Origin: Trypanosoma brucei | Lineage: Eukaryota | Reading direction: 5' to 3' | Length of the DNA stretch: 64,000 nt | Assembly (NCBI GenBank): GCA_000002445.1 | Contig: CH464491.1 | Span: 4,960,001 to 5,024,000 of the forward strand | Shown: piece after piece, positions 24,601-27,600 of the stretch | How positions within the stretch are numbered: position 1 is the stretch's first letter | Layout of the letters: the number at the start of each line of letters is the position of its first letter | Position numbers: made by a program

Positions 24601-27600
24601 TGTGCCTTCCTTTCCTTCTAGCGTGTTGTCCTTATTTTTAAGCCATGATTCTGTGGCTGTGCCTAGGTTTGTATTGAATATTGAATTTAGTAGGGTGTCC
24701 TCACTGTCAAAAGTATCTTTCCATTCCGGAGGTTCCTCTGCGTCCTTGAGGTTGTAAAGGCTGCAAAGCGCTACGAAGTCTGGCGCGTTATCGCCGTCTG
24801 CTGCACCCACTGTTGGCTCTCTGCACGTCAGACAAAGAATGACGACAGACGCTACCGCAATTGTCGTTATATTTCAGTGCTGCCGCATTTCCTCTTTACT
24901 GCGTGTCTTGGCAAATGTCGGCTTGGTTGGGGCTGTCTTAGGTTGTTGGGTTGTTACTAGTCTGTGACAAAACAAATTTTAGGTTGCCGTTTCCTGTTTC
25001 TGTCTGTGGTACGGCTGCCAGTCCAATGTTGCCGCTAATTCCGTAGAGTAGCTTTTTTTTTTGTTGTTGTGGTGTTAAGAAAAACGCAATTAGTTAAGAG
25101 GGGAGCTTGTGCCTAGTGGAGTGTCTTGTGATCTTCTTTTGGCGAGTGCTTTTTCTTCTGTGTGAGGTCACTGTGCGCAGATAGCATGTTGGCACAACGG
25201 TTCCTACGCACTTCTCTGCGGCTTTAGCTTTTGGTCACGGCTGACTGTTCTCTTAATTGCAGATTCTGCAAGCCGTCGTTTATTATTCTGTGAGTTTATC
25301 ACGATTTGGCGGTATTAAACAAATACCTCTCTTTAAACACAAAACCGCAAATATTTCCATAAGCGAAGTTCACTTTCTCTCCACCTATCGCATGTGCTTG
25401 GATATTCCTCAAATATTTCTTACTAAATTTCCCGCTGTGAAATTCCGCGTACCAAGGCATGTTTTGTACAATATTTCTAGCCCGTGCTTCCCATGAAAAT
25501 GGCCAAAAAGGAAAATGAATGAATTGACCTTCTCCAAGTCCACACTACACGGAATAGAAAATAATCTTTCTTAATAATCTAATCCAACCGTTCCTCTCCT
25601 CAAAACAAATCTCTGTCCAACAACTTCTTCTTGAATTGCACTTCAAATCGGTTACGGCTTGTAAATACTCTGCTCTGACTACCATTCCTCACTTCCCTTT
25701 AGTAACTCTCCAAACGCATATTCAAATTTCTTAAATGCCCAAACTCTTGCTATCAAACCACCACCACTAAGATAGGTTATTCCACTAGGAGGTGATTTTA
25801 GTAAGTAAGGTAAGTTTTTATCTTCTTCTTTTCTGTAGCCCACATTAAAAAACCAAAAACATCTCTGCACATGCTCATTGTGATCTGAGTTCATAAGCAA
25901 ATCTAACTGAGGCGCATAACACTCTGATGTTGTCATGAACATAATAGGGGAAATATGCTTCTCATTTACTATATCTTCTCCAATAAACTTCTCTTCATTT
26001 TCCGCAGTATTTTGTATAAAATATTCTACAGCATTTTCATACTTCTCTTGATCACTAACAATAACATCAGATCCGTCGGAATGAATTAAAATATCCTCAT
26101 CACTTGCATTCCGTCTTTCCAAAAAAGTCTATTACCCATCTAGGTCTCTCAACATGGCTGTCCAAACCCCCCATTTCAACTGTAATAATTTCAATGTTAC
26201 TTAATTTGGAAATCAATATTAACCTACATCATCCTTGAGTTGCATGAGTATGAACTACAACCACAAAGACTCGTATAGTTTTATTAACGTTCGTCTTTAT
26301 ATTACTTTTGACTTACCATTATTAAGAGATATTTAGTGTAAATACACTGATTGAATAGGTAATGTAGCAGCAGGGGTTTCAAGATACAAAATTTCATGAC
26401 ATAGTCTAGGTTTAAAAATACAGGGTGTTGTAAAGAAACATAAAAAACCTAAGAATGGAGGTCAGTTGCAGCACTAAAGTGATTAGCTAAGGAAAAAGAG
26501 TTCACAAAGTAGTATGTAATCAATGCCTTGACATTTTCATGATACAGCTTTTGAAGTGTTTATGATCATGGTGTGTAACTTATCTTTGAGGATTCAACTA
26601 CAATCTCCATTTAAAAGGTTAACTCCAAGAACAAGCAGAACATGAAACTACGCTCCCTTTCCTATTTTTATGCATTATTCACATTTACTTTCTGTGCATT
26701 TCTGTAAAAACTGCACTAGTTGAATGCATTTATGGGTTCATACATGATAACGATTTTACTACTGTACTGGGCTAAGTACCCCAACGATCGAGTTTCTTCA
26801 TGTGACTCTCATCAGTGTATATTTATGAACTACTGCCATTTTTTTGTTTCTATCATCTCTGCAATAGACTCTCTCCATTGTTCACTGAAATATGATGAAC
26901 AGTCTCCTACTGCACACTTCTCTCCTGTGATGTGTCAGCGGATATTCCGTCATTTTATTCTGCATTTTATTTTCTTCTTTTCTCTCTTCTATCTCTGTCT
27001 CTCCATGAAAAGTTACATATTCATTTGGTTTGTATACTGTATTTTGTATATACTTCATTATGATCGCCATCATATCCTTGTATAAAATGATTCCAATAGT
27101 GATATTTGTGCATAAAATGCGCATTGAATATGCGCTCCTACTAGCTGCTTTCACCGTTTCTTTTAAAAGTAATGTTTTTCTTGCTCAGCATCTTACTCCC
27201 CTTGAGCCCTTGCCATTGTTTTAACTTCTTCTATCCATACCGAATATTCGGTCTTCGGCACCACTGTTATTATCACTTTACTATGCTTACAGTCACAAAA
27301 ATCTCCTATCATCATCATCATTCTCATTATCATTACTCCTATTATTATTACTGCTCTTATTATAATATTTGTATATGCACTCTCACAACATACTCCTATC
27401 ATTAGCATTACTATTATAGTATTACCTAAATATTGTTGAAATAAGAATAAACCAAAATTGCATATTAGAATAGCATTCATTTTTAATGCACTATCAAAGC
27501 ATTACTTTGCACATACAGGCCAGTACGATGCAAAAAATTTTCACTTACCTTCACAATTTAGTTAAGAAATGTTAAAATATAGAAAGTTCTTGTAAATTAT

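What the first reader, a model, noticed from the sequence alone, without database searches (positions are those of the whole stretch)
25300..26150. Two diverged copies of a short ESAG-like ORF embedded between VSG cassettes
The ORF at 25679-26122 ('MERRNASDEDILIHSDGSDVIVSD...FMTTSECYAPQLDLLMNSDHNEH...') has a second copy at 45329-45655. The two share closely related protein sequence and conserved flanking DNA. Both are on the - strand, between a VSG and the next 70-bp repeat. Both are degenerate downstream, with homology continuing in other frames. The only non-VSG protein-coding families known in VSG arrays are ESAG3/ESAG-like pseudogenes, RHS and ingi. On position and size this is probably an ESAG3-like family, but I cannot confirm identity from memory. 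Its repeated pairing with VSGs suggests it moves as part of a larger duplicated cassette.
Basis: partly seen in the sequence, partly recalled or inferred. Interest (0 to 1): 0.55.

Follow-up and report, generated by a model that had tools for sequence, protein, structure and literature searches.

The report
Two decayed ESAG3 pseudogenes among VSGs
The two short ORFs are fragments of two broken copies of ESAG3, the trypanosome gene recently reported to encode the enzyme that adds glucose to the surface coat protein; dead ESAG3 copies scattered through silent coat-gene arrays are already well documented, so this is an ordinary feature.

Summary
25318-26208 and 44844-45741 share 79% identity over 905 nt, and nothing else in the window matches. 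A frameshift-corrected translation hits one protein cluster, the 368-aa ESAG3 of T. brucei bloodstream expression sites (E 2.4e-97). Identity is 66-72% to those proteins and about 28% to core GRESAG3.

Both copies are pseudogenes.
- Copy A (26397->25299, minus strand) is full length and keeps its ATG. It carries five in-frame stops and at least three frameshifts.
- Copy B (about 45750->44825) lacks the first ~65-73 codons. It starts within 20 nt of the stop codon of an upstream VSG and has four frameshifts and three stops.

The '147-aa ORF' is ESAG3 codons 95-241. A +1 T frameshift shared by both copies bounds it upstream. A TAG at the W242 codon bounds it downstream. Its 'M' is a TTG read with the bacterial code.

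The two copies are mosaic relative to each other (90/80/61% identity by segment; dN/dS 0.27). The flanking VSGs are unrelated, so a jointly duplicated VSG+ESAG3 cassette is not supported.

ESAG3 pseudogenes in VSG arrays, and downstream of 70-bp repeats, are already published. Verdict: already known, low interest.

The parts
25299..26397 (-). ESAG3 pseudogene copy A, full length (ESAG3 codons 1-368 equivalent, ATG 26397-26395, TGA 25301-25299). In-frame stops at codons W59, W242, L251, W254, E278. Frameshifts within codons 1-34, a +1 T at F94/L95, and one near codon 287-290.
   Evidence: tblastn HSPs 26306-26115, 26125-25544 and 25595-25305. N-terminus 'MKFCILKPLLLHYLF' read from the sequence. 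Stops listed. Alignment.
25679..26122 (-). The reported 147-aa ORF. It equals ESAG3 codons 95-241 of copy A, opened by the +1 T frameshift and closed by TAG at the W242 codon. It is not an independent gene.
44825..45750 (-). ESAG3 pseudogene copy B, truncated at the 5' end (starts at about codon 65-74, TAA 44827-44825). It shares the +1 T at F94/L95. Further frameshifts lie near codon 191, at W242 (TGG replaced by CAG plus a 5-nt insertion) and near codon 322. Stops at codons 232, 294 and about 359. H297 is replaced by Y.
   Evidence: five tblastn HSPs in three frames, 45719-44828
45329..45655 (-). The reported 108-aa ORF, the ESAG3 codon 95 to about 190 portion of copy B.
27212..27508 (-). 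70-bp repeat block immediately upstream (in the sense direction) of copy A. The core ATATACAAATATTATAATAAGAG lies at 27354-27376.
23487..24888 (-). b-type VSG pseudogene downstream of copy A, with several in-frame stops and one frameshift. It ends in the GPI signal '...SFLVHQKFSRSITSAFLSLLSF*'.
   Evidence: Pfam VSG_B E 2.6e-20; three-frame translation
23003..23620 (-). 70-bp repeat block that closes the cassette holding copy A.
45761..46600 (-). C-terminal half of a VSG (VSG_B domain, GPI signal '...FLVNKKFSLMNAAFLSLVSF*', stop at 45763-45761). No conserved 16-mer of the VSG 3' flank was found there, and it abuts copy B within 20 nt or less.
   Evidence: Pfam VSG_B E 1e-24
43080..44600 (-). 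b-type VSG pseudogene downstream of copy B (several frameshifts, no clear start codon). The 16-mer lies at 43011-43026 and the next 70-bp repeat at 42772-42868.
   Evidence: Pfam VSG_B E 4.6e-13 and Trypan_glycop_C

Best explanation
These are two independently decayed, non-coding relics of ESAG3. ESAG3 is the Fam53 gene that a 2026 preprint reports to encode a Mn2+-dependent, GT-A-fold UDP-glucose:VSG O-glucosyltransferase. Both relics sit in a silent subtelomeric VSG array of a Trypanosoma brucei-group genome.

Shown here:
- Both are collinear with the 368-aa expression-site ESAG3.
- Neither can make the enzyme. Each has multiple stops and frameshifts, and the W242 codon, whose alanine mutant is inactive, is destroyed in both.
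- They share a +1 T frameshift.
- Their divergence is strongly mosaic along the gene.

Inferred:
- They descend from an array-resident ESAG3 lineage.
- They have been patched by segmental gene conversion with other ESAG3 copies, which would explain dN/dS well below 1 despite a shared disabling lesion.
- Copy A preserves the '70-bp repeat - ESAG3psi - VSG' arrangement already described in two Lister 427 expression sites.
- Copy B is an A-like unit that lost its 70-bp repeat and its first ~65-73 codons in a rearrangement, which joined it to the end of an upstream VSG.
- Any present role is passive, as extra homology for recombination, not as a protein.
For: Identity:
- a single hit, E 2.4e-97.
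- the cluster members are named ESAG3 and come from T. brucei expression sites.
- copy A is 66-71% and copy B 69-72% identical to the 368-aa ESAG3s, against about 28% to P0017.
- P0017 is a core-chromosome ESAG-related protein of TREU927 (XP_823173).

Pseudogene state:
- HSPs lie in two to three frames, with stops inside them.
- stop positions.
- D110, D113, G215, G216, E244 and Q245 are kept. W242 is a stop in A and Q in B. H297 is Y in B.
- both copies read GACTTTTTTGG (T6) where the protein requires T5.

Mosaicism:
- nucleotide identity is 90.1%, 80.4% and 61.0% in three consecutive segments (chi-square p = 3e-17).
- dS is 0.16 against 0.62 (Fisher p = 0.0012). dN/dS is 0.27 (binomial p = 1e-6 against neutrality).
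- copy A is the closer one to expression-site ESAG3 in residues 186-241 (52/56 vs 41/56). Copy B is the closer one in residues 270-323 (40/54 vs 29/54).

Context: (VSG_B pseudogenes and 70-bp repeats).

Literature:
- PMC3607257: ESAG3 'is also in VSG arrays'.
- PMC2567434: ESAG3 pseudogene 3' of the 70-bp repeat in BES7 and BES15, and ESAG3 loci coincide with recombination breakpoints.
- bioRxiv 10.64898/2026.01.27.701950: enzyme function and catalytic residues.
Against: - No trypanosome nucleotide collection was available. Descent from an array lineage, gene conversion donors and the deletion model for copy B are therefore inferences from two sequences and one protein cluster.
- The shared T6 run is a homopolymer. 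It could be parallel slippage, or a consensus error of the assembly, rather than shared ancestry.
- dN/dS of 0.27 could also mean the copies were functional for most of their separate history. In that case the shared frameshift would not be ancestral.
- Transcription and translation were not testable here.
Confidence: 0.93

Rival explanations
1. The ESAG3 copy and its neighbouring VSG were duplicated together as one larger cassette.
For: In both loci a b-type VSG pseudogene follows 350-400 bp downstream of the ESAG3 stop codon on the same strand.
Against: Similarity between the loci is confined to ESAG3 and ends about 20 nt before its stop codon. The two downstream VSGs give no tblastx hit to each other at E<1e-4. 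The upstream contexts differ: a 70-bp repeat for A, a fused VSG 3' end for B. With dS of 0.2-0.6 in the coding part, old non-coding flanks could have become unrecognisable, so an ancient co-duplication followed by VSG replacement is not excluded.
Confidence: 0.08
2. The 147-aa ORF encodes a functional truncated ESAG3-derived protein.
For: It is the longest open stretch in the interval. Its sequence is 86% identical to ESAG3 residues 94-287 and keeps the DxxD motif. dN/dS between the copies is below 1.
Against: It has no ATG at its start (TTG = Leu95), and the first in-frame ATG would give about 87 aa. Because the shared frameshift removes codons 1-94, it lacks the signal peptide and the first beta-strands of the GT-A fold. 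At the 3' end it stops at the essential W242 and so lacks H297 (bioRxiv 10.64898/2026.01.27.701950). The equivalent ORF in copy B is broken at a different place (108 aa). It lies in a silent array.
Confidence: 0.02
3. The copies belong to the GRESAG3 or ESAG3-like branch of Fam53 rather than to ESAG3 sensu stricto.
For: Identity to expression-site ESAG3 is only 66-72%. The last ~45 residues are about 35% identical to it in both copies.
Against: Core GRESAG3 representatives score about 28% identity and about 160 bits, against about 500 bits for expression-site ESAG3. The T. b. gambiense ESAG3-like fragment P0016 gives 43-47%, also lower than expression-site ESAG3.
Confidence: 0.04
4. The pseudogenes are retained because they serve as DNA. 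They could act as upstream homology tracts for VSG gene conversion that bypasses the 70-bp repeats, or as donors for patchwork conversion of expression-site ESAG3.
For: The identity pattern is mosaic and relatedness to expression-site ESAG3 flips along the gene. Copy A sits inside a cassette, downstream of the 70-bp repeat, as in BES7 and BES15. ESAG3 loci mark recombination breakpoints in expression sites (PMC2567434).
Against: There is no direct evidence of selection for retention. Two copies in 64 kb, each heavily decayed and one truncated, are what neutral debris would look like. The direction of any conversion is unknown.
Confidence: 0.1

Closest known systems
ESAG3 of T. brucei bloodstream expression sites (Fam53; e.g. 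Q26748/AAA63784, CAQ57304)
   Same: Collinear over the whole 368 aa, with 66-72% identity. Keeps the N-terminal 'MKF...' leader (copy A), the DxxD metal motif, the Gly loop and the E/Q pair.
   Different: Not intact: 5 stops and at least 3 frameshifts in A; a 5' truncation, 4 frameshifts and 3 stops in B. W242 is lost in both. Located in a silent VSG array, not between an expression-site promoter and the 70-bp repeats.
ESAG3 pseudogenes already annotated in T. brucei subtelomeric VSG arrays, and 'ESAG3 psi 3' of 70-bp repeat' in Lister 427 BES7 and BES15 (PMC6152948, PMC3607257, PMC2567434)
   Same: Same gene family, same pseudogene state, same kind of location. Copy A has the same order: 70-bp repeat - ESAG3psi - VSG.
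   Different: Nothing categorical. Copy B's direct fusion to the stop codon of an upstream, retroposon-disrupted VSG is a locus-specific rearrangement.
Core-chromosome GRESAG3 (e.g. XP_823173 of TREU927, P0017)
   Same: Same Fam53 superfamily and GT-A-like N-terminal region.
   Different: Only about 28% identical. GRESAG3 genes are intact and lie in chromosome cores.
Human LH3/PLOD3 glycosyltransferase domain
   Same: Weak sequence match of ESAG3 residues 44-118 (PDB phmmer E 0.029; Pfam GT_PLOD 16.5 bits). The preprint reports a structural superposition and shared catalytic residues.
   Different: Below Pfam's cut-off (27 bits). This is relevant to what intact ESAG3 does, not to these dead copies.

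Membership tests
ESAG3 sensu stricto (Fam53) | Collinear sequence similarity to the 368-aa expression-site ESAG3 | tested here: met
   (E 2.4e-97, 100% query coverage). (residues 34-367 and 74-368). (A aligns over 1-367, B over 74-368; about 500 and about 440 bits).
ESAG3 sensu stricto (Fam53) | Closer to expression-site ESAG3 than to GRESAG3 / ESAG3-like paralogues | tested here: met
   66-72% against about 28% (P0017-P0023) and 43-47% (P0016). No full phylogeny was built.
ESAG3 sensu stricto (Fam53) | Intact ORF with N-terminal signal sequence | tested here: not met
   multiple stops and frameshifts in both copies, and B lacks codons 1 to about 65-73. Both are therefore pseudogenes of the family.
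ESAG3 sensu stricto (Fam53) | Catalytic set D110, D113, G215-G216, W242, E244/Q245, H297 (bioRxiv 10.64898/2026.01.27.701950) | tested here: not met
   D110, D113, G215, G216, E244 and Q245 are kept in both. W242 is TAG in A and Q plus a 5-nt insertion in B. H297 is Y in B.
ESAG3 sensu stricto (Fam53) | Position inside a telomeric expression site, upstream of the 70-bp repeat array | tested here: not met
   VSG cassettes with short 70-bp repeats lie on both sides. Copy A lies downstream of a 70-bp repeat.
GT-A glycosyltransferase, LH3/PLOD-like | Significant match to the PLOD GT domain | tested here: inconclusive
   For intact ESAG3 (P0001): PDB phmmer E 0.029 to 6wfv_A. Pfam PF25342 gives 16.5 bits against a cut-off of 27. 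Structural evidence comes only from the preprint.
Silent-array VSG cassette (70-bp repeat + VSG + conserved 3' end) | ESAG3psi enclosed between a 70-bp repeat and the VSG it precedes | tested here: met
   Met for copy A only. Copy B has no 70-bp repeat upstream before 50385.

The most novel reading that the evidence does not exclude
Array-resident ESAG3 pseudogenes might be more than debris. They could form a reservoir that exchanges segments with expression-site ESAG3, by analogy with mosaic VSG formation. ESAG3 is now reported to be the VSG O-glucosyltransferase. If the reservoir idea held, it would diversify that enzyme. Alternatively, the copies could give VSG cassettes an extra upstream homology anchor for conversion into expression sites. 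The mosaic divergence and dN/dS below 1 seen here are compatible with this but do not show it.
Probability: 0.06. Interest if true: 0.55.

Novelty: already known. Interest (0 to 1): 0.1.

Why it matters
It matters little beyond correct annotation. The two ORFs should be annotated as parts of ESAG3 pseudogenes, not as hypothetical proteins. Similar fragments are named 'hypothetical protein, unlikely' in T. b. gambiense and 'hypothetical protein' in T. b. equiperdum. The locus illustrates two known things: ESAG3 remnants travel with VSG cassettes, and ESAG3 sequences are recombination-prone. It might gain relevance now that ESAG3 is reported to be the enzyme that O-glucosylates VSGs. In that setting a genome-wide survey of array copies as possible conversion donors could be worthwhile.

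Tried and rejected
- Pfam on the raw ORFs gave nothing.
- Exact-sequence look-ups of three intact VSGs from the window and of ESAG3 P0001 found no encoding contigs. Neither the source assembly nor ESAG3 nucleotide sequences could therefore be retrieved.
- The DNA collections on offer (phage, plasmid, E. coli, prokaryotic genomes) are irrelevant to a trypanosome and were not used.
- Berriman et al. 2005 (PubMed 16020726) and a guessed PMC id (PMC1950903) for Marcello & Barry 2007 are not held.
- Searching the Hertz-Fowler paper for 'GRESAG' and 'VSG arrays' gave nothing.
- A structure prediction of ESAG3 was considered and dropped. A cryo-EM structure and an AlphaFold/Foldseek analysis are already reported in the 2026 preprint.
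- A third ESAG3 remnant in the other cassettes was looked for with tblastn at E up to 10. None was found.
- A telomere-repeat relic at the strand-switch was looked for and not found.

Full report
**Observation**

- blastn of 23001-29000 against the whole window finds one strong non-self match. It joins 25318-26208 to 44844-45741, at 79% identity over 905 nt and 755 bits.
- The other matches in that search are 70-bp repeats and VSG 3' ends.
- The repeat is real, has exactly two copies in this window, and is about 900 bp long. That is much longer than either ORF.

**Identity**

- Pfam found nothing for the raw ORFs.
- A 259-aa translation of copy A, stitched across its frameshifts, hit a single protein cluster among 5.8 billion (E 2.4e-97, 100% coverage).
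- The cluster's 15 members are the 368-aa ESAG3 proteins of T. brucei bloodstream expression sites. Some older entries are mislabelled 'variable surface glycoprotein'.
- tblastn with that protein maps copy A to residues 34-367 (26306->25305) and copy B to residues 74-368 (45719->44828). No further copy in the window scores E below 2.
- Reading upstream of copy A shows the ESAG3 start as well: ATG at 26397-26395, followed by 'MKFCILKPLLLHYLF', against 'MKFGISRALILLLLSHL' in ESAG3.
- In a family-wide comparison, copy A is 66-71% and copy B 69-72% identical to expression-site ESAG3.
- Both are only about 28% identical to core-chromosome GRESAG3, such as XP_823173 of TREU927. They are 43-47% identical to an ESAG3-like fragment of T. 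b. gambiense.

**State of the two copies**

| | Copy A | Copy B |
|---|---|---|
| Extent (minus strand) | 26397->25299, full length | about 45750->44825 |
| 5' end | own ATG kept | first ~65-73 codons missing |
| In-frame stops (ESAG3 codons) | W59, W242, L251, W254, E278 | 232, 294, about 359 |
| Frameshifts | within codons 1-34; +1 T at F94/L95; near codon 287-290 | same +1 T; near codon 191; 5-nt insertion at codon 242; near codon 322 |

- The reported 147-aa ORF is ESAG3 codons 95-241.
- It opens where the extra T (GACTTTTTTGG, T6 where the protein needs T5) moves the reading frame past two stop codons.
- It closes at TAG in place of W242.
- Its 'M' is a TTG read with the bacterial code, and it has no ATG start.

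**What intact ESAG3 does**

- A preprint dated 2026-09-15 (bioRxiv 10.64898/2026.01.27.701950) reports that ESAG3 is a Mn2+-dependent UDP-glucose:VSG O-glucosyltransferase.
- It has a GT-A fold most like the human LH3/PLOD3 enzyme.
- The catalytic features are D110/D113, G215-G216, E244/Q245 and H297. W242 is essential: the W242A and D110N mutants are inactive.
- I saw the LH3 resemblance independently, but only weakly. PDB phmmer gave E 0.029 for residues 44-118, and Pfam GT_PLOD gave 16.5 bits, below its cut-off of 27.
- In the window copies D110, D113, G215, G216, E244 and Q245 survive.
- W242 is a stop in A and Q plus a frameshift in B. H297 is Y in B. Y82 and W345 are changed in A.
- Neither copy can encode the enzyme.

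**Relationship between the copies**

- They share derived residues relative to expression-site ESAG3: VIDFLER, HSDGSDV, DHNEH, RCFWF, LPYLL, EEVVGQ.
- They also share the +1 T frameshift. Both features suggest a common array-type ancestor that was already disabled.
- Their divergence is strongly heterogeneous, however.
  - Nucleotide identity is 90.1% (26208-25856), 80.4% (25855-25560) and 61.0% (25559-25300). Chi-square p = 3e-17.
  - Synonymous divergence is 0.16 in codons 74-185 and 0.62 in codons 186-287 (Fisher p = 0.0012).
  - Overall dN/dS is 0.27, significantly below 1.
- Relative closeness to expression-site ESAG3 flips along the gene.
  - In residues 186-241, A matches 52/56 and B 41/56.
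  - In residues 270-323, B matches 40/54 and A 29/54.
  - In the last 45 residues all three are about 35% identical to one another.
- The simplest reading is inferred, not shown: the copies are patchworks produced by segmental exchange among ESAG3 family members.
- Differences between A and B would then partly reflect differences among once-selected donors.
- Hertz-Fowler et al. (PMC2567434) already noted two related points. ESAG3 copies do not cluster by position, and ESAG3 loci coincide with recombination breakpoints.
- One caveat applies. The shared frameshift lies in a homopolymer run, so it could be convergent slippage or an assembly error.

**Context**

- From about 17.3 kb to 64 kb the window is a minus-strand array of VSG genes and pseudogenes, with Pfam VSG_B or Trypan_glycop hits. 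They are separated by short 70-bp repeat blocks.
- Copy A, in the sense direction: 70-bp repeat (27508->27212, core 27354-27376), 815 bp, ESAG3psi-A, about 400 bp, VSG pseudogene (24888->23487), 70-bp repeats (23620->23003).
  - ESAG3psi-A therefore lies inside a cassette, downstream of the 70-bp repeat.
  - This is the arrangement recorded as 'ESAG3 psi 3' of 70-bp repeat' in BES7 and BES15 of Lister 427 (PMC2567434).
- Copy B has no 70-bp repeat of its own.
  - ESAG3 similarity starts at 45741 or above, within 20 nt or less of the stop codon (45763-45761) of an upstream VSG C-terminal half.
  - No match to the conserved 16-mer of the VSG 3' flank occurs there.
  - A second VSG pseudogene follows (about 44600->43080), then the 16-mer (43011-43026) and a 70-bp repeat (42772-42868).
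  - No 70-bp core lies between 42822 and 50385.
- An A-like unit that lost its 70-bp repeat and ESAG3 codons 1-73 in one deletion or illegitimate join would give this structure. That is an inference.

**The 'larger duplicated cassette' idea**

- Similarity between the loci ends about 20 nt before the ESAG3 stop codon at the 3' side and at B's truncation point at the 5' side.
- The two downstream VSG pseudogenes do not hit each other by tblastx at E<1e-4, although each hits other VSGs in the window.
- The idea is not supported. An ancient co-duplication erased by VSG turnover cannot be excluded.

**Comparison with what is known, and verdict**

- It states that ESAG3 'is also in VSG arrays' (PMC3607257).
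- It states that pseudogenic ESAG copies are prevalent in subtelomeric VSG arrays (PMC4766357).
- The finding is a correct recognition of a known, ordinary feature.
- The only mildly interesting points are the shared frameshift combined with mosaic divergence, and copy B's fusion to a VSG stop codon. Both fit the known recombinational behaviour of these regions.
- Novelty: already known. Interest: 0.1.

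Noticed in passing
window 46602-48280 (- strand): The 432-aa ORF at 46875-48173 is not a VSG. It carries several C2H2 zinc fingers (Pfam zf-C2H2_4, E 1.4e-8), sits in the most GC-rich 2 kb of the window (0.516), and is followed by '...GGCACGAAGAAAATTCC' plus an A10 tail at 46602-46611. It looks like the 3' part of an ingi/L1Tc-type non-LTR retroposon inserted into the VSG upstream of ESAG3 copy B. 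The VSG N-terminal part is at 48711-48289 and its C-terminal half at 46600-45761. A run of 100 N (48181-48280) interrupts the element, so its 5' part is missing from the assembly.
   Followed up: partly
window 15830-16860: A G-rich, C-poor low-complexity tract of about 1 kb on the + strand (GC skew about 0.3), with scattered single N bases. It lies in the convergent strand-switch region, between the last +-strand VSG sequence (a fragment at 13823-14278; the last long +-strand ORF ends at 11455) and the first minus-strand VSG (ending at 17290). It creates long spurious proline/serine-rich ORFs on the minus strand (15759-16799). There are no TTAGGG repeats in it. Its nature is unknown.
   Followed up: partly
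window 9971-11455 (+ strand): A 494-aa ORF of VSG size, in array position with a 16-mer just downstream (11549-11564), gave no Pfam hit at E<0.01. Its neighbours hit VSG_B or Trypan_glycop. It may be a divergent VSG type.
   Followed up: no
window 26398-27211 (- strand): The 815-bp AT-rich spacer between the 70-bp repeat and the ATG of ESAG3 copy A has no similarity to anything else in the window. Whether it corresponds to the ESAG3 upstream region of expression sites could not be tested without trypanosome nucleotide data.
   Followed up: no
proteins P0016 (T. b. gambiense CBH11491) and P0035 (T. b. equiperdum RHW71741): Short ESAG3-derived ORF fragments like the ones in this window are deposited in other Trypanozoon genomes as 'hypothetical protein, unlikely' or 'hypothetical protein'. 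The same kind of pseudogene fragment is therefore being called as a gene elsewhere.
   Followed up: partly
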